This document shows positions 12,942 through 41,142 of a stretch of 64,000 nt of DNA, in pieces. A program made the position numbers and the translations under genes. Under the pieces are notes generated by a model that was not told the origin of the DNA, made no database searches, and was given only the letters and a program-made list of their open reading frames with translations. Origin of the DNA: a virus (taxonomy: Duplodnaviria; Heunggongvirae; Uroviricota; Caudoviricetes); IMG/VR virus record IMGVR_UViG_2541047680_000004. One strand, written 5' to 3'. The first letter of the stretch is position 1; the number at the start of each line of letters is the position of its first letter.

Positions 12942-13232
12942 ATCTTAAGCTTGCTCGAGAGGTGAGCAACCAAGACAGCACGGCACAGAAGAACATCAAC
13001 AGGCATAGTATTACAAAATAAATAGGTAAGTGAATACCTACCAAAATTGTTGAATGGATTGCTTACAAGGCGGCTAGAGTTTCATTGAAGTGCTTAGATG
13101 TATATGGTAGGCAAAAGTCTCATCGTTACATATGAATGAACTATCTCATGGGTCATGTATCATTTGATATTTTTATTATCAACAATTACTGTATAAGAGG
13201 AATTTTCCAAATTGAAAAAGGATTGATTATCA

Positions 13233-13490
13233 ATGGCTATTGATGAAAGAAATATTGTTGTTGGTGGATTGTACAAGACCCATACGAATCAAGAACGGGT
13301 CGTTCTAGAAATAAAAGATGATGAAGTGAAATACGCTCCTCGAGGTGGAAATGTAGAAAATAAATTTGACCATATGCAAAAAGCCAAATTGATCACATTT
13401 GCAGGAGCATGTTCAGAAAAAATTAAAGATTTACCCTCCGATGAATTTAATAAAATTCGACAACTATTTGTGGATAGAAAACTTATTTAA
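13233..13490 (+). CDS. hypothetical small protein (plus-strand moron-like)
   Basis: 85-aa ORF in AT-rich region, opposite strand to neighbours, followed by a terminator. Confidence 0.35.
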   Translation: MAIDERNIVVGGLYKTHTNQERVVLEIKDDEVKYAPRGGNVENKFDHMQKAKLITFAGACSEKIKDLPSDEFNKIRQLFVDRKLI

Positions 13491-13581
13491 ATAGTTGTAT
13501 TAGTTTTGAGGGTTTGTCTCTTAAAGGATTACCATTACTTGGATGAGTAAATTTTAAACAGGAAAAGTTCTAAAAGCCAAT

Positions 13582-13611
13582 GAGCGCCTATGTAACGAGC
13601 GCTCTTTTTTT
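13582..13611 (+). terminator. rho-independent terminator
   Basis: gagcgc ... gcgctc stem followed by T8 run. Confidence 0.5.
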
Positions 13612-13637
13612 GTTTGTGGATGGGCCTACTAAACCAT

Positions 13638-14291
13638 TTAAATCGTGTCGGAGGGCTTTTTACGCGCGTTACGCGCTGCGTTTATGCTTATGACGCCAGC
13701 TTTTGGACGTGGGTCAACAAGGTTAAGCTCTTCTTCACTGTGGTATTCGAGGTCGAACTCACGTTTTACATGTCTGATGTAGATTGCGGTGAGCAGGCTA
13801 TCTTTGGTTAGGAAGTGTCCGTAGGATTTGCGGATCACTTCTTCTACCTTCTCGATTTTCTCACCCCCCATACAGAGATGATTAAACCGGCTGTGTTTTC
13901 GCAACATTTCGTCTACTGGACCTGAGTAAACCTTGTCTACTTTCCCAAAACGGATGATTTTCCCTGTGTCTGCGGATACAAGGCAAATCAGCTTGTCTGG
14001 TGATAAACGATCTCGCCACGTCACACCTGAACGGAGTGTGTTGAAGTAGGGGGCATCCAATCCGATGATCGGTTTACGAAATGCGAGCAATGGAACGTAC
14101 CTGATGCAACTGTTTAAATGAAAATTCACACCAGCCTTATCAAGTTTAATTCTGGTTTCGTAGATCGGGCACTTCGCCGCTATACCGCAGATGTCACAAA
14201 GCAACTTCTGCTTATTCAGGTTGGAATTTGATTCGATAGTGTAGGAGCCGTCTTCAAGACGACGAACCCAGCGCGTGCGTTTTAGATCCAT
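13638..14291 (-). CDS. hypothetical protein
   Basis: 217-aa ORF with several Cys/His residues; no confident family assignment. Confidence 0.4.
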   Translation of the reverse strand: MDLKRTRWVRRLEDGSYTIESNSNLNKQKLLCDICGIAAKCPIYETRIKLDKAGVNFHLNSCIRYVPLLAFRKPIIGLDAPYFNTLRSGVTWRDRLSPDKLICLVSADTGKIIRFGKVDKVYSGPVDEMLRKHSRFNHLCMGGEKIEKVEEVIRKSYGHFLTKDSLLTAIYIRHVKREFDLEYHSEEELNLVDPRPKAGVISINAARNARKKPSDTI

Positions 14292-26000: not shown

Positions 26001-26595
26001 TGGCGACTTTCATCGCCCGGACGTTAATCTGGTCGTAGAATGGGGTAGGGTGCGGATAAACCACACTATAGAAGTTGTCTTTTCCACCCGCTGTAATCAG
26101 TGTGCTTATGATTTTTGCAAAATCGTTGCGTTGGAACACGCTACCGATGTCGGAAGTAAGCAGGATGATGTTGCCTTTGGCATATGTAGAAACCAACTGT
26201 TCGAGCGAGAGACGCGGTACAAAGTAGAACTGTTCTCGTGTGTTGGCCGCCGTCATTAGTTCGCAGATGTCGCGATATCCTTTCTCATTTTTAATTAGAG
26301 CGGTAAACGAGTAGTTACGTCCTCGCTCTAATGATTCCATACATCCCTTAGATTCTTTAGCAAGTTTAGCCCGGTGCTCGTATGTGGGATCATCAACGAT
26401 ATTTAGTTTCACACCACAAATAACCGCCATGTCGTCACCAGCGGCACGTTGTAGTGGAATAACACTCGCAATATTCATGCTATCTGCTGAAATTACAGCG
26501 GTGTAGCCAGCTTCTCTGGCAATCTTCACCGCGTTTTCTGCTTTTAAAGCCGACTCCCCAAGTGAGAAGTCAGTTCGAACCATCAGTGCCTTCAT
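23077..26595 (-). CDS. dnaE: DNA polymerase III alpha-like replicative polymerase (DnaE family)
   Basis: N-terminal PHP-like region and the GPGRGSSAGSLVAWCIGITNVDP ... LLFERFINPER signature of DnaE-family polymerases; 1172 aa. Confidence 0.85.
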   Translation of the reverse strand: MKALMVRTDFSLGESALKAENAVKIAREAGYTAVISADSMNIASVIPLQRAAGDDMAVICGVKLNIVDDPTYEHRAKLAKESKGCMESLERGRNYSFTALIKNEKGYRDICELMTAANTREQFYFVPRLSLEQLVSTYAKGNIILLTSDIGSVFQRNDFAKIISTLITAGGKDNFYSVVYPHPTPFYDQINVRAMKVASALKIEPVAFYPAYYESIDDADIKDIAHMVTNNIKIDQPHRLRIPHQRDNAVNGRRHLLEALKAFSVRMDVPVTAAMASTTQDTIIDACTWRWHELPPALPKMADDEPATLMKLAVAGLRKRLTTKEFGYTPPASENRVYVERLKYEMDTLTRLGFCGYFLMVRDLMNHSRETGIPVGPGRGSSAGSLVAWCIGITNVDPIRHGLLFERFINPERLDLPDADLDFSQARRHEVIEYLNERYGEDYVAGIPNFTYLGAASALRDTARIYGVESADMAVSKELKNVEDDSLPLEELREQLASLDKYATKYPDAFNAACKLQSLMRGFGRHAAGMIVAGVPLTERTPVERRGDARCIAFDKRYCEAMGLIKLDVLGLATLDLLDSAKRYIKENTGEDINLDAISLEDRKVLDGFAAGYTQGVFQLESGPMRKLLKDLGGGIEPMSFKTVVATTALFRPGPIQSGMLDDYVSVAKGFMTPESLHPVLDELTAETNGVILYQEQTMNATRLLAGFTMAEADAVRSAIGKKNMEKMKSMGEKFIVQAQAGWIDVELEDGTTQRIHRAEHFKCEDGTLKTVEEALEHGAKLPINAVRVTASHPGLSEMKAKEIWTAFEKNGAYQFNKSHSVAYSLISYQSMWLKTHYPAEFFAAALTILGEDKHQGLVKDALTYGIRVLPPDVNVSSNRIEIRTLEDGSQVLYAPFSAVKGCSENGCQAIMRAREKVGGKFESLAQFEEAVEKRACNSRVRESLQKVGAFASIEPGSLPATAPERLRDQAELMGNLVIDAVKASRPFEMNPKRSAEINVLMTRMAAEMGLGDELIRPSIGIKPKIMIILDNANGNDARTGYFMENGYDDFKAKLLTAGDLRMGDLYVTGVCKKVKDKEKDYTKDEIGQFTDFIREEINLVRPTYVLTCGSRATALFNNKNKPSDLVGRKEYLPDLDVTVFYGFNPNILYFRPEEGERLEAILADVAETIKT

Positions 26596-30778: not shown

Positions 30779-31165
30779 ATGTCTGATAACAAGATTGAAT
30801 TTATAGAAAGTCGCTACGCTGCTTTTATCGCAGGGTTGATTGAATCCTCACCTATGAGCCAGTCCCAGATAGCCAAAACAATTGGGTATAAAAACGCCAA
30901 CAACCTTTCTTTAATTAAAAGCGGCAAAATTCCTTTGCCTATCGATAAGGTTCGTCCGCTGGCGCTGGCACTGGGTATTGAGCCAAGTCGTCTTATGATG
31001 ATGGTGCTGGAAGAACGCCAACCCGAACTCGCAGCATTTTTATACAAAGAAGGCACTGCTCCTCTTAACGAGGACGAAAAACAGGTTCTTGCTGCATATA
31101 ACGAGCGATTCGGTAAAGAGAAAGGCGCATCACAAAAGGTTGTTGAGGCCATAAAGTCTCTATGA
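30779..31165 (+). CDS. helix-turn-helix transcriptional regulator (XRE/Cro-CI-like)
   Basis: SQSQIAKTIGYKNANNLSLIKSGK HTH motif; plus-strand gene with palindromic motif A (ggtaagcacttacc) about 40 nt upstream. Confidence 0.6.
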   Translation: MSDNKIEFIESRYAAFIAGLIESSPMSQSQIAKTIGYKNANNLSLIKSGKIPLPIDKVRPLALALGIEPSRLMMMVLEERQPELAAFLYKEGTAPLNEDEKQVLAAYNERFGKEKGASQKVVEAIKSL

Positions 31166-32263
31166 AAAATTTACACGAATAAGCTCTGTTGATAGACGAT
31201 CTCCCTTAAATTTGTGGTCAATTTCGTCTAAATCCGGTTGCTCTACGATTGATGCGATGTACGTCGAGAAACTTTCTAAGGCGTCTCGCATCTCGTCCAT
31301 ATAATCGTGCCGGTCGTAGACCCGATCTATCCCCTCAAGACTGTGGTTCATGATTTTACGTGATACCTCCTGGCTTATGCCTAATGCTGGGAAGTAACTA
31401 CGCGCAGTACGGCGCAAATCTCGGGGTGTAAATGGCTCAAGCTCCATCAGTTCTGGTCGTTCCAGAATACGACGTAATGCCTGGGCTATTGCCACTTTAG
31501 ACATAGGAAGGTCTTTCCCGATTTTTTTATTCGAAGGCACGAGCCACTGGCTGTCTTTACCGTATTCGAACAACTCTTCAATGCATGTGCGCATTAATGT
31601 GCTTAAAGGCAGCGAATGCTCACGTGCTGACTTGTTTCTCTTGCCTTGATTCCAAACCCCACGCTTAAGATTGAACTCACTTTTTTTAGCCCGCAGTACT
31701 TCGTCAGGTCGTCTTGCTGATACAAGACACAGTCTGGCCGCCCATTTTGTACCAGCGCACACATTGAAGTAGTCCCATATATTCCAGAACACCCATACCT
31801 CTGCGTCAGTCAGCTTCCGCTCGCGGGGCGTGGGCTTTGCGCCACCGGCAACTTTGTTAAGTGACATATCGTTTAACGGTGACACGTCTATCATCCCCTG
31901 GAAGGCGCACCAGCTAAGGAACTGCTTCATCAGAGAGAAAACGCGGCGGCCCATAACAATTTTGCCATCCAGTATTAGTGGGTTGACCAGTTGGTTCACC
32001 ATGAACCTATTAATGTCACTTACTTTTACATCGGCAATGTGCGGCAAAACATGTATCAAAATACAATGAACAGCGATCTCTGGCCGACGTCTGGTTATCA
32101 GCAGAGATAAGCGAGTGAATAACAGGAATGCGTCCGAGAATCTCATGTCATTGCTGACCTGGGAGATCATAACGGCCTGCATTTGAGATGCTCTTTCGAG
32201 ATACTCTATCGCCTCTTTTGAGGTGTTCTCCGCAGCGCGTGCTCTGTCAAAGCTATTTTTCAT
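31160..32263 (-). CDS. tyrosine site-specific recombinase (integrase/Cre/Xer family)
   Basis: C-terminal catalytic signature: R..PDEVLR, HSLP, PRDLRRTARSY (box II), IMNHS, VYDRHDY (nucleophile Tyr). Confidence 0.75.
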   Translation of the reverse strand: MKNSFDRARAAENTSKEAIEYLERASQMQAVMISQVSNDMRFSDAFLLFTRLSLLITRRRPEIAVHCILIHVLPHIADVKVSDINRFMVNQLVNPLILDGKIVMGRRVFSLMKQFLSWCAFQGMIDVSPLNDMSLNKVAGGAKPTPRERKLTDAEVWVFWNIWDYFNVCAGTKWAARLCLVSARRPDEVLRAKKSEFNLKRGVWNQGKRNKSAREHSLPLSTLMRTCIEELFEYGKDSQWLVPSNKKIGKDLPMSKVAIAQALRRILERPELMELEPFTPRDLRRTARSYFPALGISQEVSRKIMNHSLEGIDRVYDRHDYMDEMRDALESFSTYIASIVEQPDLDEIDHKFKGDRLSTELIRVNFS

Positions 32264-32361
32264 ATGACAATCACCGAGTTACGCCGATGCACTGTATAAG
32301 TAAACAGTATATTAGGCATAGATTCTTATAGGATCAAGAGTAAAAGTAACTCATTTTCAGC

Positions 32362-32396
32362 AATGATTCCATACATAGTAGGTATGGAATCATTTT
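32362..32396. promoter_or_regulatory. lox/dif-like candidate recombination site: 13-bp inverted arms with 7-bp spacer
   Basis: aatgattccatac-atagtag-gtatggaatcatt, perfect inverted repeat about 100 bp upstream of the tyrosine recombinase gene. Confidence 0.5.
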
Positions 32397-32473
32397 GACG
32401 TTGTTTTTTGAATTTTAAGGGAAATGGGAGTGAGTTTGGTGGGAATAAAAACGGCTCCTGTGAGCCGTTAAAA

Positions 32474-32719
32474 TCAGAGGGTGCTGACGTATGCAGCCAG
32501 TTCTGTGTATCCGCCAATCGGCTGGCCTTCGATCAGCACCTGGGGGATAGTCTCTACCGGTTTACCAACAATTTCACTTAGTTTTTCCTTGTCGATACCG
32601 GCAGTGGTGATGTCGATGTACTCATAATCACCGTAGCCATGTCCCTTTAGTTGCTTCGCTAGCTCGACCGCACGTTTGCAGTATGAGCAGTTATCTCGTC
32701 CGTAGATAGTGATCGTCAT
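32474..32719 (-). CDS. glutaredoxin / NrdH-like redoxin
   Basis: MTITIYGRDNCSYCKRA with CxxC active site near the N-terminus and thioredoxin-fold length; start taken at the internal Met with GAGG RBS. Confidence 0.7.
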   Translation of the reverse strand: MTITIYGRDNCSYCKRAVELAKQLKGHGYGDYEYIDITTAGIDKEKLSEIVGKPVETIPQVLIEGQPIGGYTELAAYVSTL

Positions 32720-32893
32720 TGTTACCTCATAGAATTGATATGCAACTTTACTCACAAAGAAGATAGGTATGTGCATACTTATCTTTGCAGTCTGCATTAT
32801 AAAGCTATTAAAGCCTCGATCAATCTATTAATTAAGGCATTGTTTGGTTAACATTACCCTAATATTTTATAGTTAGTAGAGTGAAATACATAC

Positions 32894-34156
32894 ATGCCTT
32901 TTTTAATTTTCATTATTATACTACTGCTCACCGTGATTTTTTGGGATTGGGTTGTTTTAAATGGTCAAATTGTTGGAACATTGGCTACAGCATTTGCTTT
33001 TATAGCAACAGCATGGAATGCCTACGAAGCGAGAAAAAGTGCAAAAGCAGCTTTTTCAGCCCTTCAATTAACAACAGAATCATTGTTCGAAATGCGAAAG
33101 AGTGCATTTAAACAATGGTTTGATTCCTTATTAAATCAACATGATGAGCTATGTCTTCTTGCAAAACAAATTATCGATAAACGCAAAATTAATTTAAACA
33201 GCGATGAGTTACATAGACTATATTACCCATTGGTAAAACAGCATGAGGTAATACAGTATGTGAAGCATATTATTAATATTTTTGAGTATGTGGATAGTTC
33301 ATTTTATATTGATGGGGAATGTCTAAAGGAAAAAAGAGCGTATGTGTCACAATTAATTTTCAAAATCCCACCTCAGATGAAGTTGATCATTGCTATCTTT
33401 GGATTAAAGATCGATTATTGTGAACATATTAATTCGGGAAAACTGTGTTGTTTATTAAATAAATATGATTTTTTCAATGATGAAATATTTTTTGATGATG
33501 CTTATTCAGATATGCCTTATCTGGATGCATTCATAAACCTTAGATTCAACAAAATATTCAAATCTCGAATGATAAATTATTTTGATAATATCATTAAAAG
33601 TTATTATGTTCCATCGGACGTTAAAAGGGACTGGATGTTTCGAGACCCAAAGCTCGTACCGTCGGTTCTTATGAATTATAAAACTCCTTGTTCTCCTATA
33701 ATTAATGATTACTTTGAGAAGTTGCCTTTACATGTAAGAAACTACTTTGAGGAACTACTTAAAACCGCGAATGATAGAGTTACTCATTTTGACGTTTACA
33801 TCCCACGCCTTATTGGTTGTTCAATCGTGCAACATTACGAAGATGTGCCTTCCGAAAAAAACAGGTTAAATGACAGGAATGATGTAATAGCTATGGCTGA
33901 AGATTACATCGAGAAAAGAAAATCTAATCAACTAGATTACATACTTGAAGATATATACTTCAAGAGTGACGAAGATATAATCCCAGGCCACCATTTGATT
34001 GTGGCATTTGATGACTATGAATTTAAATTATCACTCATTAAGATAAATGAGAATAAAGATAGCGATAATCTTTTAAATCGAATTTATACTGAATCCAGTA
34101 GCATGGTTAAAGAATATAAGCGCGAAATATTAAAACTGGGCGACTATGTAAAGTAA
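32894..34156 (+). CDS. AT-rich membrane-anchored hypothetical protein (candidate accessory/defence-type gene)
   Basis: 420-aa ORF on the opposite strand to its neighbours; two N-terminal hydrophobic helices; sequence visibly more AT-rich than flanking genes; own terminator downstream. Confidence 0.5.
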   Translation: MPFLIFIIILLLTVIFWDWVVLNGQIVGTLATAFAFIATAWNAYEARKSAKAAFSALQLTTESLFEMRKSAFKQWFDSLLNQHDELCLLAKQIIDKRKINLNSDELHRLYYPLVKQHEVIQYVKHIINIFEYVDSSFYIDGECLKEKRAYVSQLIFKIPPQMKLIIAIFGLKIDYCEHINSGKLCCLLNKYDFFNDEIFFDDAYSDMPYLDAFINLRFNKIFKSRMINYFDNIIKSYYVPSDVKRDWMFRDPKLVPSVLMNYKTPCSPIINDYFEKLPLHVRNYFEELLKTANDRVTHFDVYIPRLIGCSIVQHYEDVPSEKNRLNDRNDVIAMAEDYIEKRKSNQLDYILEDIYFKSDEDIIPGHHLIVAFDDYEFKLSLIKINENKDSDNLLNRIYTESSSMVKEYKREILKLGDYVK

Positions 34157-34174
34157 ATTGCACTGTTCAACAAA

Positions 34175-34200
34175 AAAGGGGCCGAAGCCCCTTTGAATTT
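34175..34200 (+). terminator. rho-independent terminator
   Basis: aaggggc-cgaa-gcccctt hairpin followed by tgaatttt. Confidence 0.55.
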
Positions 34201-34348
34201 TGCGCTGAAAAAAGTGTTGCTAGGATGTTAGCAAGCTATGGTTAAGAACGTCTGCCGTAATTATCTATCACAGCGTTGAGCGGTCTGGTTTATGTTAGCG
34301 GAGTCTTAATCGAGTTGATTAAAAGGCCAAACCGCTCAACGCTGTGTC

Positions 34349-34435
34349 TGGCGGAGAGTAATGGAATCGAACCATCATCGTTTGCACAATGGGACGGTTT
34401 TCAAGACCGCTTGAGCACCATGCTCCCTACTCTCC
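34349..34435 (-). tRNA. tRNA-Ser (anticodon UGA), long variable arm
   Basis: Manual fold of the reverse complement: acceptor ggagagt/actctcc, anticodon loop cuUGAaa, T-arm ggttcgattcc, encoded CCA; about 87 nt. Confidence 0.6.
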
Positions 34436-34755
34436 AGCTATTGTGATGGTCGGTGCTGAACTCCGACACAGGGTTGTAGCAAGCCCCGCAAAGCGCGCAC
34501 TACTGTAGTTGCGGCACATCAGCCTGTGCATTCATCACAATGGTAAGATCACTACCTTTCGACCAGTCATTGTGCACATGAACGACGATTAACCGTAATG
34601 ATATTATCGTTGTGTTGTGAAGCCAGATGCTTATCTTCTGGTTGCTTCAAAGAGCTGCACTTCCTCACAACGGTAAGAGCACTGGTCTGACTCTATCGAT
34701 TTACGGCCTTGTGGGTCAGTATCGCCGATTCGCCCAATGCTCTTACCTGTTGTGT

Positions 34756-34831
34756 TGGTGCCGGTTAACGGACTTGAACCGCTGGCCATTCGCTTACAAA
34801 ACGACTGCTCTACCAACTGAGCTAAACCGGC
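34756..34831 (-). tRNA. tRNA-Thr (anticodon UGU)
   Basis: Reverse complement gccggtttagctcagttggtagagc ... ttUGUaa ... ggttcaagtcc ... aaccggcacca; one mismatch at the top of the anticodon stem. Confidence 0.55.
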
Positions 34832-34835
34832 AATT

Positions 34836-34922
34836 TGGTGGGGAGTGATGGAGTCGAACCACCCGAGTCGCCATGACAGTAGATTTACAGTCTACACCGC
34901 TACCTCTACGGACTAACTCCCC
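34836..34922 (-). tRNA. tRNA-Tyr (anticodon GUA), long variable arm
   Basis: Reverse complement ggggagt ... actGUAaatc ... ggttcgactcc ... actccccacca. Confidence 0.6.
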
Positions 34923-34927
34923 TAAAT

Positions 34928-35002
34928 TGGCGATGGTGGGTGGATTCGAACCACCGACCAGTTGGTTAACAGCCAACTGCTCTACCGCTGAGCTACACCA
35001 TC
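34928..35002 (-). tRNA. tRNA-Asn (anticodon GUU)
   Basis: Reverse complement gatggtgtagctcagcggtagagc ... ctGUUaa ... ggttcgaatcc ... caccatcgcca. Confidence 0.65.
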
Positions 35003-35780
35003 AATTCAGCACTGCCAGTATTTATTACTCAACAGTGCCAATCGCGACGGTTTAGTTTCTGCCAGGAAACGCACCGCTACTTGCACTTTTCGTTAGTGCC
35101 AGACGCTTTCGACTTCGCTCAATAGTAGAAGGCAAAATCTTTAAGTAGATGATGTTTCTGAGGACAGCACCTACTTTGTAATTTATACAATGTGATGTAT
35201 GGAATCATTTGTTGTGAAAACAGGCACCAATGGCAACAGTGGTTAAACCTACACAACAATCCCGTCTTCACAACGTTGAGGCCACTACTCCGATTGAATG
35301 TTTGCCCAACATGTTACATATCAACGCTCGCCGGTATCTCTGTGAATAGAACCTTAGAATTGATAAAAATGTAATGGCCTCAACGTTGTGTGCTGGCTAA
35401 CCATACCAGCCGGGCTACGTCGCCGCTTTTTAACCCAGTATAAACGACATAATTGAACAAAATGACGTAACAGGATGGGCGGTCAGTGGCTAAGAATCCG
35501 GGAGTCATATGGAGTTGAAAATATACCAACCGCCCATTCTGTTACTTCATCGGAGGGAACATGAATGTTCCCTCCTGCGTTCTGCAATCACACTCGCTCA
35601 GTGTGTCCCATTTCGGTAACGAGGCTGGAAACTGACCTCGCTGGTGTTTGGCTTATTAGGCTACTGCCAGATAGACTTCTTCGTTTGCACTTGTATTTAA
35701 GTTCAAACAGTCGCGTCTCAACGAAAACAAAGTCATCTTATACACAAAAGATAAGTAAGTAAATACTTATCATTGTATTT

Positions 35781-36071
35781 TTATTCGGTTGTGACTTTTT
35801 TGATCAAGGCCACTCTACGACTAGGTGTTCTTGTGATGGTGGCAGTGAATCGTTTCGCCTGGATAGTAATGGTTTCGTTCTCCTTAAGTTGCCCGTAGCG
35901 AGTTTCCACCAGGGTGCCAAGACGCCACAGACCATCATCGATACGTTTATGACTAGCAAATTTAATCAGCAACAGTTTTACGACTAACTGACCTACGTAA
36001 AAGGCGAATGCGACTCCGGCCGCTAAGAAATAGGTGGCCAACCACCAGTCCCAAGAAGTTAAATTGCTCAT
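35781..36071 (-). CDS. small membrane-anchored hypothetical protein
   Basis: 96-aa ORF with N-terminal hydrophobic helix. Confidence 0.35.
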   Translation of the reverse strand: MSNLTSWDWWLATYFLAAGVAFAFYVGQLVVKLLLIKFASHKRIDDGLWRLGTLVETRYGQLKENETITIQAKRFTATITRTPSRRVALIKKVTTE

Positions 36072-36591
36072 TTTCTAACCTTTGTTTCATGAACTACCCG
36101 ATACACACGCTTTCCGATACACAGTGTTTTGGTTTTAAGTTCCTGCTTAATTAAATCACGACAGATGCCGAAGCCGATAAGGAAGCCACCCATAAAAGCT
36201 AATGAGATGTATGGAATCATTTTAACACTCCTGATTCTACTAATTGCTGTAGCAATACTTTCCCTTTATCAGTTAACTGGTAGTTGGCCGAACACTTCGT
36301 TTCAGAAACGTTTGCAACCAACCCTAACCGCTCTAACTTAGCTCGCGTTTTAGGCTTCCAGTACTCAGGGAACTCCGGCCACTTACTGATTTCATGAAGC
36401 GTTTCCTTCTCCCGTTTACTTAATACGATCATCCTTAATCTCCTTCACGGTGTTGGTTATTTCTACAATGCGATAAATGCGACCTCGTCTTTCTATAACA
36501 CCGTTTTTAATGTAGTCATTAATGCAACTGGACATCACCACAATACCGATGAAAAAACCAACTGCTAAAAATGCAATCATCCAGCCGAGCA

Positions 36592-39350: not shown

Positions 39351-39764
39351 TTAATGAGCTACAGCCTCACTGTTGCACATCTTTCTGTAGACCTGCTTAT
39401 AACGCTGTAAGTCATGAGGATCATTAGGTGCCAACGACTTCGATAGGATTTTGTATACCACCCCTTTCGAAAACATGCCCTTTGGCTTCATTTCGAGTTC
39501 AACAACATATGAGTGATAGCCCACGTATGCACCAAAGCCATTTTTGGCGTTCAATTCTCCGCACACAAAGCCTGTCACACTCCCATCGTCATGATCAGTC
39601 CTGACAAACTTATCTTTCCTAAACATCACCGACGTGGGATCTTTCATATCATCCGCAATTGCTTGTTGGCCCAGAGCAATAGCCTTCTCGTCTGTAGGCT
39701 TACACCCCACTAAAGCAAACAAAGACAATAAAGCTCCTGTTAAAATCAGCTTATTTTTGCTCAT
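39351..39764 (-). CDS. putative lipoprotein
   Basis: Signal peptide with lipobox LVGC (MSKNKLILTGALLSLFALVGC). Confidence 0.5.
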   Translation of the reverse strand: MSKNKLILTGALLSLFALVGCKPTDEKAIALGQQAIADDMKDPTSVMFRKDKFVRTDHDDGSVTGFVCGELNAKNGFGAYVGYHSYVVELEMKPKGMFSKGVVYKILSKSLAPNDPHDLQRYKQVYRKMCNSEAVAH

Positions 39765-39996
39765 GTTGGCTTCCCTTTATTTATATTTATCGCAGGTATT
39801 AGTTAATCAAAACACGAGCAGTGCCACAATAATTAAATGGCGTACTATTTCTTATGGTTATTAGTTTCCCAGTAACTTTACCGACCATAAACTAAATCAA
39901 CAAAGCTGACATATTAACTAAATTTAAGTACCCTTTTTCGCACACTTGACGCTTGCCGCGTCTAAACTGTTCATCCTATATCAACAGAAAAAAAAC

Positions 39997-41142
39997 ATGA
40001 AATACATAAAATCTTCATCGTTGCTGGCATTAACTTTGCTTTTTAACTCTGGATTCGTTAACGCAGACAATAAACAAACGCTGATAGAAGCCGCTACCGC
40101 AGGGGATACCGCAGCACAAAGTGAGTTAGGTACAAATTATTTTGATGGTGTCAATGGTTTTGATAAGGATGTAGTTGAGGCCAAGAAGTGGATTGATCTA
40201 GCTGCAGAAAAGGGAGATAAAGTAGCATATTATGCACTTGGAGTTATGTACACATTTGGCGAGGGTGTAGATAAAGACCTAAATAAAGCTGTTGAGTACT
40301 ACAAACTTGCGGGGGATGCTCGTGAAGGTAGAGCCTACAACAATCTTGGTGCTATTTATCAAAAGGGGATGCTTGGTAAAGTAGATCATGCACTCGCCAT
40401 TAAATACTTCAAACTAGCCTCTGATGCCGGGTATGTTAAAGCAACTTCAGTTCTTGGGGCGTATTACCAATATGGTAAAGGCGTTAAAAAGAATTATAAA
40501 AAGGCTTTTACTTATTACAAAAAGGCGGCAGACCAAGGCAGTTCAGAAGCTATGATAGGATTAGGAATACTATACGATGATGGGTTAGGCGTTAAACGCA
40601 ATGATGCAGAAGCAGTTAAGTGGTATAAAAAGGCAGCGGAACTTGGAAACGCCGACGCCATAACCAATCTTGGCATTATGTATGAGAATGGGGAAGGTGT
40701 AAAAAAGGACTATAAAAAAGCAGCCGACCTTTATCAGACTGCTTGCGATAAAGGAGAAAAAAGAGGCTGCGATTACATTGCAGAACTGAAAGAAAGCGGC
40801 AAATATCGAGCGCCGGCTTCCAAAGCCAAAACAAAATCCGCCACCCAGCGACTTATTGCTAAATCCATTGATAAGGGCGTTAACGCTACATTTACCTGGC
40901 AGGGTGATGATGCTACCTTCACCGCTAATGATGGCAAAGTTGACTGCACCTTCCTGAAGGATTTTTCAGAGAAAGGAGGCAATCTGGCTACCTCGTTTGT
41001 TTGCACCGATAACGTTCAAATCATCCTGAAGCAATTCAGAGATACCAAGAATGCCTACCTCGCGGTAATGACTGACAACTTCAATACAGAAGTTAAATCA
41101 TTTTCGGTCAATGTGTATGTGACTAATACTGGTTCAAACTAG
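39997..41142 (+). CDS. secreted Sel1-like repeat (TPR-like) protein
   Basis: Signal peptide MKYIKSSSLLALTLLFNSGFVNA followed by at least 7 Sel1-type repeats (A..YY.LG.MY..G.GV.KD...A..WY.KAA pattern); plus strand, opposite to neighbours. Confidence 0.7.
   Translation: MKYIKSSSLLALTLLFNSGFVNADNKQTLIEAATAGDTAAQSELGTNYFDGVNGFDKDVVEAKKWIDLAAEKGDKVAYYALGVMYTFGEGVDKDLNKAVEYYKLAGDAREGRAYNNLGAIYQKGMLGKVDHALAIKYFKLASDAGYVKATSVLGAYYQYGKGVKKNYKKAFTYYKKAADQGSSEAMIGLGILYDDGLGVKRNDAEAVKWYKKAAELGNADAITNLGIMYENGEGVKKDYKKAADLYQTACDKGEKRGCDYIAELKESGKYRAPASKAKTKSATQRLIAKSIDKGVNATFTWQGDDATFTANDGKVDCTFLKDFSEKGGNLATSFVCTDNVQIILKQFRDTKNAYLAVMTDNFNTEVKSFSVNVYVTNTGSN

What the first reader, a model, noticed from the sequence alone, without database searches (positions are those of the whole stretch)
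32894..34156. AT-rich, membrane-anchored 420-aa ORF on the opposite strand beside the tRNA cluster: compositional outlier and candidate defence/exclusion gene
This ORF is transcribed against the flow of all its neighbours, has its own terminator hairpin, and is conspicuously AT-rich (protein rich in Ile/Asn/Lys/Tyr/Phe/Asp) compared with the flanking glutaredoxin and tRNA genes, suggesting recent horizontal acquisition. It has two N-terminal transmembrane helices followed by a roughly 370-aa soluble domain with no motif I can place. It lies between two copies of the GTATGGAATCATTT element (32382 and 35194) together with the tRNAs, a location typical of accessory-gene hotspots. Standalone membrane-anchored proteins of this style are common among abortive-infection and superinfection-exclusion effectors.
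Basis: partly seen in the sequence, partly recalled or inferred. Interest (0 to 1): 0.7.

Follow-up and report, generated by a model that had tools for sequence, protein, structure and literature searches.

The report
Divergent AbiC/AbiP-like gene on phage-plasmid
The AT-rich opposite-strand gene is real and is a very divergent, membrane-anchored relative of the lactococcal AbiC/AbiP abortive-infection proteins, sitting in a swap-prone cargo slot of an SSU5-like E. coli phage-plasmid, so it is a credible but untested anti-phage gene of a known and poorly understood kind.

Summary
A 420-aa ORF lies at 32894..34156 (+) and all its immediate neighbours are on the minus strand. Its GC is 0.320 against 0.459 for the window, the lowest 1263-bp stretch in 64 kb (z = -4.3). 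It has two N-terminal hydrophobic helices.

The window is an SSU5-like E. coli phage-plasmid. The protein itself has no hit at Pfam's threshold and no PADLOC AbiC or AbiP hit. However, 16 of 28 homologues found by an exhaustive HMMER search carry Pfam putAbiC (PF16872), and some match PADLOC AbiC or AbiP. A profile-profile comparison of its close family with the putAbiC-positive set gives 99.95% probability (E = 1e-37).

The gene sits in a 1.44-kb variable cassette (32732-34170). Near-identical backbones carry, in the same slot and orientation, alleles 30-55% identical, an unrelated gene, or nothing. All sampled alleles are AT-rich, so low GC is a family trait and not proof of recent entry.

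The hairpin is backbone: it terminates the tRNA array. The 13-bp motif is a dispersed, conserved backbone element, not a cassette boundary.

The fold (pLDDT 85.7) matches nothing solved. The defence function is inferred, not shown. This is a new, divergent member of a known kind, of moderate interest.

The parts
32732..34170 (+). Variable cassette: a 162-bp upstream region, the ORF, and 14 bp after the stop codon. It is replaced as a block among relatives.
   Evidence: blastn of window 31000-36500 against seven related loci. Backbone homology ends at 32719-32731 and resumes at 34168-34173 in every relative.
32894..34156 (+). 420-aa AbiC/AbiP-like (putAbiC superfamily) membrane-anchored protein gene.
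   Evidence: ORF. phrog_18168 (function unknown) at E = 4.5e-215. hhalign against the putAbiC-positive set gives 99.95%. dN/dS is 0.34 and 0.21 against two alleles.
32897..33022 (+). Residues 2-43: two N-terminal hydrophobic helices forming the membrane anchor.
   Evidence: Hydropathy of 2.83 and 1.73. AlphaFold helices 2-22 and 24 onward. A K/R-rich segment follows TM2, so the positive-inside rule places the C-terminal domain in the cytoplasm (inference).
32963..33142 (+). Residues 24-83: TM2, the juxtamembrane helix (ATAWNAYEARKSAKAA) and the LLNQH motif. This is the most conserved part of the family.
   Evidence: The window protein is 43-68% identical to 26 of the 27 other sequences here, and 19% to P0043. 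25 of the 42 columns conserved at >=75% fall in residues 24-83 (27 of 42 within residues 17-83).
33242..33487 (+). Residues about 117-198: the region aligned to Pfam putAbiC (PF16872), containing invariant Y122, F193 and F194.
   Evidence: P0007 residues 131-212, P0014 residues 132-207 and P0011 residues 122-200 hit PF16872. These stretches align to window residues about 117-198 in A2.
33488..34153 (+). Residues 199-420: hypervariable C-terminal half, mostly helical with a small beta element. Proposed specificity or sensor part.
   Evidence: 11-25% identity to all homologues except the 53% allele. Modelled with pLDDT mostly 82-96.
34175..34194 (.). G+C-rich hairpin between the convergent ORF and tRNA-Ser. 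A backbone element that probably acts as a bidirectional terminator.
   Evidence: Conserved in relatives with other cargo or an empty slot.
32796..32823 (-). Promoter-like site (TTGATC-16-TATAAT, 10/12) facing grxA, in the divergent intergenic region that lies inside the cassette.
   Evidence: No plus-strand site upstream of the ORF reached the scan threshold. By eye, TTGGTT-18-TATAGT at about 32846-32875 matches 8/12.

Best explanation
The ORF encodes a standalone, inner-membrane-anchored protein of the putAbiC / AbiC-AbiP group. It is carried as exchangeable cargo by an SSU5-like phage-plasmid, and it most likely acts as a prophage-encoded abortive-infection-type defence against other phages.

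Shown here:
- The gene is real and under purifying selection.
- It is homologous to putAbiC-domain proteins.
- It has two N-terminal hydrophobic helices and an all-alpha body.
- TM2, the juxtamembrane helix and the putAbiC core are conserved, while the C-terminal half is hypervariable.
- It sits in a slot where alleles are swapped between near-identical backbones.

Inferred from what is published for AbiP and AbiC:
- The protein is made in the lysogen from a promoter inside the cassette and sits inert in the membrane with its large domain in the cytoplasm.
- A late product of an infecting phage engages the variable C-terminal half. For AbiP the trigger is the major tail protein.
- The conserved N-terminal and putAbiC module then blocks late phage gene expression or maturation. 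This could work by non-specific RNA/ssDNA binding, as in AbiP, or by membrane perturbation.
- The infected cell yields few phage, and sibling cells carrying the phage-plasmid are spared.
For: Homology:
- phmmer against 1.84 billion representative proteins gave 41 hits.
- 16 of 28 aligned homologues hit PF16872, best E = 1.4e-11. P0026, P0039, P0043, P0028 and P0044 score 32-37.5 bits against a cut-off of 22. In the closer clade, P0014 scores 22.0, P0011 19.2 and P0007 18.
- Four homologues hit PADLOC AbiC (best E = 1.3e-6). PADLOC AbiP was hit by two at E <= 0.01 (best 1.1e-4) and by a third, P0044, at 0.011.
- hhalign of the close family against the putAbiC-positive set gives 99.95% probability, E = 1.1e-37, over 289 columns.
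- Reciprocal tblastn of the putAbiC protein P0036 hits the same slot of SSU5-like plasmids, and also Pantoea genes that PGAP names 'putative phage abortive infection protein'.

Architecture: two TM helices as in AbiC (review PMC13064643).

Population pattern typical of defence cargo:
- 40 of the 246 complete E. coli genomes that carry the backbone ligase have this allele.
- 138 PLSDB plasmids carry some allele, and 101 of them are below 60% identity.
- The integrase is 99% identical where the alleles are 37-54% identical.
- The slot is alternatively empty or holds an unrelated gene.

Selection: dN/dS is 0.34, against 0.05 for the integrase.

Conservation gradient.

Literature: AbiP needs its TM anchor and its nucleic-acid binding, and is triggered by a phage major tail protein. 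AbiC lowers major capsid protein production.
Against: - The window protein itself has no PF16872 hit at E <= 1 and no PADLOC AbiC or AbiP hit. Membership rests on transitive and profile-level homology.
- No experiment on any enterobacterial member was found in the held literature. A large survey of SSU5 phage-plasmids using DefenseFinder mentions no abortive-infection gene other than AbiH in the passages my term search displayed (12 of 15 hits); I did not search that paper for AbiC or AbiP by name.
- The mechanism of AbiC and AbiP is itself unresolved, and the two differ from each other.
- The residues invariant across the family are all aromatic, so no catalytic site can be named.
- Expression in the lysogen is not shown, and no plus-strand promoter reached the scan threshold.
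Confidence: 0.6

Rival explanations
1. Superinfection-exclusion protein. The membrane-anchored protein blocks DNA entry, or an early envelope step, of incoming phages including related phage-plasmids, without killing the cell.
For: It is N-terminally membrane-anchored. It is prophage-borne cargo on the opposite strand in a variable slot. Allele diversity would suit exclusion specificities.
Against: Its homologues are AbiC/AbiP-type proteins, which act after DNA entry according to the literature. By the positive-inside rule the 375-aa domain is cytoplasmic, not periplasmic (sequence). No Sie family was hit in PHROGs or Pfam.
Confidence: 0.12
2. A cargo gene unrelated to phage defence, for example a membrane protein that changes host physiology or serves the phage-plasmid's own lysogeny, lysis or maintenance. 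In that case the AbiC/AbiP homology reflects only a shared scaffold.
For: No function has been shown for any enterobacterial member. The fold has no known relative. No catalytic residues are conserved. The neighbouring cargo is heterogeneous: grxA, phoH, gp49-family, YafO toxin and colicin immunity genes.
Against: The gene is dispensable. It is absent from Cyrano and from most backbones. Extreme allele divergence at a fixed slot, with a conserved N-terminal module and a hypervariable C-terminal half, is what an arms-race gene looks like. The only characterised relatives are anti-phage proteins.
Confidence: 0.2
3. A toxin-like addiction or post-segregational killing factor that stabilises the plasmid prophage.
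For: The adjacent variable slot in relatives carries a YafO-family toxin. Membrane-anchored proteins can be toxic.
Against: There is no partner or antitoxin ORF in the cassette. Most backbones lack the gene yet are maintained. AbiP is not toxic without its phage trigger.
Confidence: 0.05
4. A chance ORF in AT-rich non-coding DNA.
For: The stretch is AT-rich, has a weak ribosome-binding site, and no promoter reached the scan threshold.
Against: Full-length homologues down to about 20% identity exist across genera, with a conserved start (MP...), conserved length and conserved motifs. dN/dS is 0.21-0.34. The AlphaFold model is confident, with pLDDT 85.7.
Confidence: 0.01

Closest known systems
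Lactococcus lactis AbiC (Prf; Durmaz et al. 1992) and Pfam putAbiC (PF16872)
   Same: It is a single-gene system on a mobile element. It has two N-terminal transmembrane helices followed by a helical cytoplasmic body. The putAbiC core (window residues about 117-198) is homologous at profile level.
   Different: The window protein falls below the Pfam and PADLOC thresholds. It is about 420 aa, against 306 positions in the PADLOC AbiC profile. It carries a roughly 220-aa hypervariable C-terminal half. R134 and H138, which are invariant in the putAbiC-positive set (A3), are K124 and N128 here. The host is a Gram-negative phage-plasmid, not a lactococcal plasmid. No phenotype is known.
Lactococcus lactis AbiP (Domingues et al. 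2004, 2008; Mosterd et al. 2025)
   Same: Relatives of the window protein hit the PADLOC AbiP profile. It is membrane-anchored. A 2026 review groups AbiC and AbiP together as 'AbiC/P'. AbiP gives the only mechanistic template: RNA/ssDNA binding, a requirement for the TM anchor, and triggering by the phage major tail protein.
   Different: AbiP has one TM helix and is much shorter (profile of 223 positions). Nucleic-acid binding was not testable here. The window protein itself has no direct AbiP hit.
Enterobacterial 'putative phage abortive infection protein' genes annotated by PGAP (for example Pantoea agglomerans WP_161569778.1)
   Same: They are detectable by tblastn from the window protein (24% identity, E = 8e-8). 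They share the TM and juxtamembrane motif, the putAbiC core and the length.
   Different: They lie on other plasmid types in other contexts, they pass the putAbiC threshold, and they are not in the SSU5 slot.
Abi_C / AbiJ C-terminal HEPN domain (for example S. aureus SadR)
   Same: Only the name is similar.
   Different: This is an unrelated family. It is defined by an Rx4-6H RNase motif, which the window protein lacks.

Membership tests
putAbiC / AbiC-AbiP group | Sequence homology to putAbiC-domain proteins | tested here: met
   phmmer E-values of 3e-17 to 3e-5 to proteins that score 32-37.5 bits on PF16872, where the cut-off is 22. hhalign of A1 against A3 gives 99.95%, E = 1.1e-37, over 289 columns. 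Reciprocal tblastn agrees.
putAbiC / AbiC-AbiP group | The protein itself reaches Pfam PF16872's gathering score | tested here: not met
   No PF16872 hit at E <= 1 for the window protein. Its nearest clade scores 18-22 bits. It is therefore filed as a divergent subfamily of the superfamily, not as a threshold-passing Pfam member.
putAbiC / AbiC-AbiP group | Direct match to the PADLOC AbiC or AbiP profiles | tested here: not met
   None for the window protein. Among its 28 aligned homologues, 4 hit AbiC (best 1.3e-6). AbiP was hit by 2 at E <= 0.01 and by a third at 0.011 (best 1.1e-4).
putAbiC / AbiC-AbiP group | N-terminal transmembrane anchor (two helices in AbiC, one in AbiP) | tested here: met
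   Hydropathy peaks of 2.83 (residues 4-22) and 1.73 (residues 20-38). The AbiC/AbiP description comes from PMC13064643.
putAbiC / AbiC-AbiP group | Standalone single gene on a mobile element | tested here: met
   The cassette 32732-34170 holds only this ORF. All copies in E. coli are on plasmids.
putAbiC / AbiC-AbiP group | Extramembrane domain superposes on AbiC/AbiP models | not tested
putAbiC / AbiC-AbiP group | Abortive-infection phenotype: reduced plating efficiency or burst size after normal adsorption and injection | not testable with these tools
   This needs expression and phage challenge.
AbiP | Sequence-independent RNA/ssDNA binding by the soluble domain | not testable with these tools
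   This is a biochemical property. The soluble domain is not markedly basic: K+R is 52 and D+E is 58.
HEPN-type Abi proteins (Abi_C/AbiJ, AbiD/F, AbiV) | Conserved Rx4-6H motif in a helical domain | tested here: not met
   There is no Rx4-6H anywhere in the protein, and no HEPN family in Pfam or PADLOC.
Septu PtuB | Match to the PtuB profile with HNH nuclease motifs, and an adjacent PtuA ATPase | tested here: not met
   There is a single weak hit (E = 9e-4, 16.9 bits) over the TM and juxtamembrane helix, in only 1 of 28 family members. No H-x2-3-H pair, used here as a crude proxy for HNH motifs, is present, and there is no ATPase neighbour.
P-loop NTPase defence proteins | Walker A motif | tested here: not met
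   No GxxxxGK[ST] motif.

The most novel reading that the evidence does not exclude
SSU5-like phage-plasmids of Escherichia, Klebsiella, Enterobacter, Salmonella and Citrobacter keep a dedicated cargo slot just past the 3' end of their tRNA array, next to the array's terminator. Through this slot they exchange hyper-divergent alleles of an AbiC/AbiP-like membrane protein. The divergent allele tested here is not recognised by PADLOC, and a DefenseFinder survey of SSU5 phage-plasmids mentions no abortive-infection gene other than AbiH in the passages I viewed. In this reading a conserved TM2/juxtamembrane 'ATAWxAxEARxSAKAA' plus putAbiC module is the effector and the hypervariable C-terminal half is a phage-protein sensor. 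The alleles would then form a natural specificity library for a defence family whose mechanism has been open since 1992, and the first working AbiC/AbiP system in Gram-negative bacteria.
Probability: 0.45. Interest if true: 0.55.

Novelty: new member of a known kind. Interest (0 to 1): 0.4.

Why it matters
AbiC and AbiP are among the oldest known abortive-infection genes, yet their fold matches nothing solved and their mode of action is unresolved. An enterobacterial clade would give that question a genetically tractable system. It has many natural alleles in an otherwise near-identical backbone, and it lives in E. coli, where large phage panels exist. Allele swaps and escape mutants could show which part senses and which part acts.

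The clade also shows a blind spot. The window protein gets no PADLOC AbiC or AbiP hit and no Pfam putAbiC hit. About a fifth of the related plasmids in PLSDB carry some allele. These phage-plasmids occur in clinical Enterobacteriaceae, so their cargo may shape which phages, including therapeutic ones, can grow on their hosts.

If expression shows no phenotype, the gene is simply one more conserved hypothetical cargo gene.

Tried and rejected
- Direct family scans of the window protein gave only noise. In Pfam the sole hit was ATP-synt_I at E = 0.34, NCBIfam gave nothing, and PADLOC gave only the PtuB hit treated next.
- The weak PADLOC PtuB hit covers the membrane and juxtamembrane helix, is unique to 1 of 28 members, and lacks the motif and the partner gene. 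I rejected it.
- A profile search of PDB sequences found nothing credible.
- The first AlphaFold run, with only 7 close sequences, was unusable (pLDDT 60.4). The run with 28 diverse sequences gave pLDDT 85.7.
- The 'AbiC' hits in a 2026 S. aureus paper concern the unrelated Abi_C/HEPN domain, so I discarded them.
- The word-indexed protein search found few relatives: 7, then 15 with the profile. The exhaustive HMMER search was what opened up the family.
- tblastn against 50,697 phage records found no homologue, even though a PHROG family matches. This is unexplained; the PHROG members are presumably records classed as plasmids or prophages.
- I tested the idea that the 13-bp repeats bound a mobile cassette and rejected it.
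- Rfam found nothing except the tRNAs around the gene.
- The alternative slot occupants have no Pfam or PADLOC hit.
- A literature search for the 13-bp motif gave only irrelevant hits.
Full report
1. What is there

Its immediate neighbours are all on the minus strand. They are a tyrosine recombinase (31160..32263), a GrxA-type glutaredoxin (32474..32719) and four tRNA genes: Ser, Thr, Tyr and Asn, at 34349-35002.

The gene is a strong compositional outlier. Its GC is 0.320 and its GC3 is 0.292, against 0.459 for the window. It is the lowest of all 1263-bp windows in the 64 kb (z = -4.28) and the lowest of 40 long ORFs.

Hydropathy gives a strong first helix (residues 4-22, mean 2.83) and a weaker second one (residues 20-38, mean 1.73). 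A K/R-rich stretch follows the second helix, so the positive-inside rule puts the remaining ~375 residues in the cytoplasm. That step is inference.

2. The genome

The window is an SSU5-like phage-plasmid of E. coli. The flanks are 95-98% identical to Escherichia phages Cyrano and CMS-2020a, and more distantly related to Salmonella phage SSU5. A 99.9%-identical copy of the gene lies on the E. coli plasmid p108_MLI108-3, whose annotation shows RepB, DnaE, primase, helicase, ligase and tail genes.

3. What the protein is

The protein on its own is invisible to curated libraries.
- Pfam gives only noise.
- NCBIfam gives nothing.
- PADLOC gives one weak PtuB hit over the membrane-proximal helix.
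- PHROGs gives an unannotated family, phrog_18168, at E = 4.5e-215.
- The word-indexed protein search found only seven clusters.

One of those clusters, P0007 (31% identical), gave a sub-threshold hit to Pfam putAbiC (PF16872): 18 bits, E = 0.004. An exhaustive phmmer search of 1.84 billion representative proteins then returned 41 relatives.

- Of 28 mostly full-length sequences that I aligned (A2), 16 hit putAbiC, best E = 1.4e-11.
- Five of the more distant relatives score 32-37.5 bits against a gathering score of 22. Members of the closer clade score 18-22 bits.
- Four hit the PADLOC AbiC profile (best 1.3e-6). The AbiP profile was hit by two at E <= 0.01 and by a third at 0.011.
- A profile-profile comparison of the window's close family (A1) with the putAbiC-positive set (A3) gives 99.95% probability, E = 1.1e-37, over 289 columns.
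- In reverse, tblastn with a canonical putAbiC protein (P0036) hits the same slot of SSU5-like plasmids. It also hits Pantoea genes that NCBI's pipeline names 'putative phage abortive infection protein'.

So the protein is a divergent member of the putAbiC / AbiC-AbiP group. It falls below the thresholds of the Pfam and PADLOC libraries I tested.

4. Architecture and fold

With the diverse alignment, AlphaFold gives a confident model (pLDDT 85.7, pTM 0.73). It has two N-terminal helices. The second runs on as a ~70-residue stalk into an all-alpha body, and there is a small beta element near residues 310-364.

Conservation is strongly graded along the protein.
- TM2 plus the juxtamembrane helix (ATAWNAYEARKSAKAA...) is 43-68% identical to all but one of the other 27 sequences (P0043, 19%).
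- The putAbiC core is intermediate.
- Residues 199-420 are only 11-25% identical to all but the 53% allele.
- Of the 42 columns conserved at >=75%, 27 lie within residues 17-83.
- The four invariant residues are all aromatic: Y122, F193, F194 and Y262.
- There is no Rx4-6H, Walker A or H-x2-3-H motif.

This argues against a nuclease or NTPase. It fits a binding or scaffold protein with a conserved membrane-proximal module and a diversifying distal part.

5. Population genetics of the locus

blastn against seven related loci places the variable block at window 32732-34170. Backbone homology stops just upstream of the grxA start and resumes at 34168-34173. The hairpin at 34175-34194 is therefore a backbone element. 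The consensus scan scores it as the minus-strand terminator of the tRNA array. It folds well on the plus strand too, so it probably serves both directions.

In the same slot and the same orientation I found the following.
- A 53%-identical allele in E. coli (L004).
- An allele about 30% identical by tblastn in E. coli (L007).
- 36-40% alleles in Klebsiella and Enterobacter (L005, L006).
- An unrelated 302-aa gene in pGD31-F25, whose ligase is 100% identical to the window's (L009).
- Nothing in phage Cyrano.

Where the alleles are 37-54% identical, the adjacent integrase is 99% identical. The alleles were therefore exchanged by recombination and did not diverge in place.

Every allele I sampled is AT-rich: 0.32-0.38, against 0.43-0.50 for its flanks. 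Low GC is thus a property of the family and not a sign of recent arrival.

Prevalence is as follows. Of 5,426 complete E. coli genomes, 246 carry the backbone ligase and 40 carry this allele, always on plasmids. In PLSDB, 138 plasmids carry some allele, and 101 of those are below 60% identity.

Against the E. albertii allele, dN/dS is 0.34 with dS 0.197. The integrase gives 0.05 with dS 0.065. The gene is a real coding sequence under relaxed or diversifying constraint.

6. How it most likely works

The only experimentally studied relatives are the lactococcal proteins.
- AbiC has two TM helices and lowers phage major capsid protein production.
- AbiP has one TM helix, binds RNA better than ssDNA without sequence preference, and needs both its anchor and its binding domain.
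- AbiP is not toxic alone. It becomes toxic when the phage major tail protein is expressed, and escape mutants map to that gene.

By analogy, I propose that this protein is made in the lysogen and sits inert in the inner membrane. A late product of an infecting phage would activate it through the variable C-terminal half. It would then block late phage development through the conserved N-terminal and putAbiC module.

Homology, architecture, the conservation gradient and the hotspot behaviour are shown here. Expression, trigger, target and phenotype are inferred. I put about 0.6 on an anti-phage role of this type. Homology to the family is close to certain.

The rivals are superinfection exclusion, a non-defence cargo function, an addiction toxin and a chance ORF. 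They are weighed in the rival-explanations section. The last is excluded by conservation and dN/dS.

The defence-candidate and hotspot readings are supported. The supporting arguments about recent acquisition, the gene's own terminator and flanking repeats are not.

GTATGGAATCATT occurs five times exactly in the window. Two copies form a perfect 13-7-13 palindrome at 32362-32394, about 100 bp upstream of the recombinase start. The layout of the palindrome plus two downstream single copies is conserved in all seven SSU5-like loci, including Klebsiella and Enterobacter. It is a backbone protein-binding element, possibly the recombinase's site, and not a cassette boundary.

8. Novelty and interest

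Prophage- and plasmid-borne Abi genes in variable slots are familiar, and the family is known, so a specialist would not be very surprised. What is new is a sizeable enterobacterial phage-plasmid clade of AbiC/AbiP-like proteins. The window protein is below the Pfam and PADLOC thresholds tested here. A recent DefenseFinder-based survey of SSU5 phage-plasmids mentions no abortive-infection gene other than AbiH in the passages I viewed. The clade also offers a natural allele series that could make the unresolved AbiC/AbiP mechanism testable in E. coli.

Verdict: a new, divergent member of a known kind, with interest about 0.4.

Noticed in passing
window 32362-32394; also 26330-26342, 35197-35209, 36209-36221: There is a perfect 13-7-13 palindrome, AATGATTCCATAC-ATAGTAG-GTATGGAATCATT, about 100 bp upstream of the tyrosine recombinase start (32263, minus strand). 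It resembles a lox/dif-type recombinase site. Three further exact single arms occur: one inside the dnaE-like ORF, one past the tRNA array on the side away from the cassette, and one overlapping the start codon of a 50-aa minus-strand gene. The layout is conserved in all seven SSU5-like loci examined, including Klebsiella and Enterobacter. No literature on it was found.
   Followed up: partly
window 32396-32492: A second variable slot lies between the palindrome and the 3' end of grxA. It is about 97 bp and empty here. In relatives it holds a YafO-family toxin plus a 202-aa gene, sometimes also a colicin-E1-type immunity gene, or the 184-aa CYRAN_43.
   Followed up: partly
L009 4665-5573 (plasmid pGD31-F25, the same slot as the window ORF): An unrelated 302-aa plus-strand gene occupies the slot in a plasmid whose ligase is 100% identical to the window's. 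It contains an RHTIVH (Rx4H) motif but has no Pfam or PADLOC hit. It may be another defence candidate.
   Followed up: partly
window 34349-35002: The tRNA array varies among close relatives. The window has Ser, Thr, Tyr and Asn. Cyrano and p108_MLI108-3 lack Tyr. The 320-bp spacer between tRNA-Ser and tRNA-Thr (34436-34755) has no Rfam match.
   Followed up: partly
window 39351-41142: A lipoprotein-like 137-aa gene (39351..39764, minus strand) and a signal-peptide-bearing Sel1-repeat protein (39997..41142, plus strand, GC 0.416) sit between the backbone 258-aa gene and the primase. Plasmid p108_MLI108-3 has only 75 bp between the corresponding genes.
   Followed up: no
window 13001-14000: This is the second most AT-rich kilobase of the window, at GC 0.380. 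I did not examine it.
   Followed up: no
window 32894-34156: The protein matches phrog_18168 almost end to end (E = 4.5e-215). Yet tblastn finds no homologue in 50,697 GenBank phage records. The PHROG members presumably come from records classed as plasmids or prophages.
   Followed up: no
L012-L014 (Klebsiella aerogenes plasmid contigs): A canonical putAbiC relative (P0043) lies on a Rep3/ParA plasmid. Three genes downstream, after an unannotated 612-aa gene and a tyrosine recombinase gene, is a STAND/AAA_16 ATPase gene, followed by umuDC-like genes. This looks like an accessory and defence-like neighbourhood.
   Followed up: no
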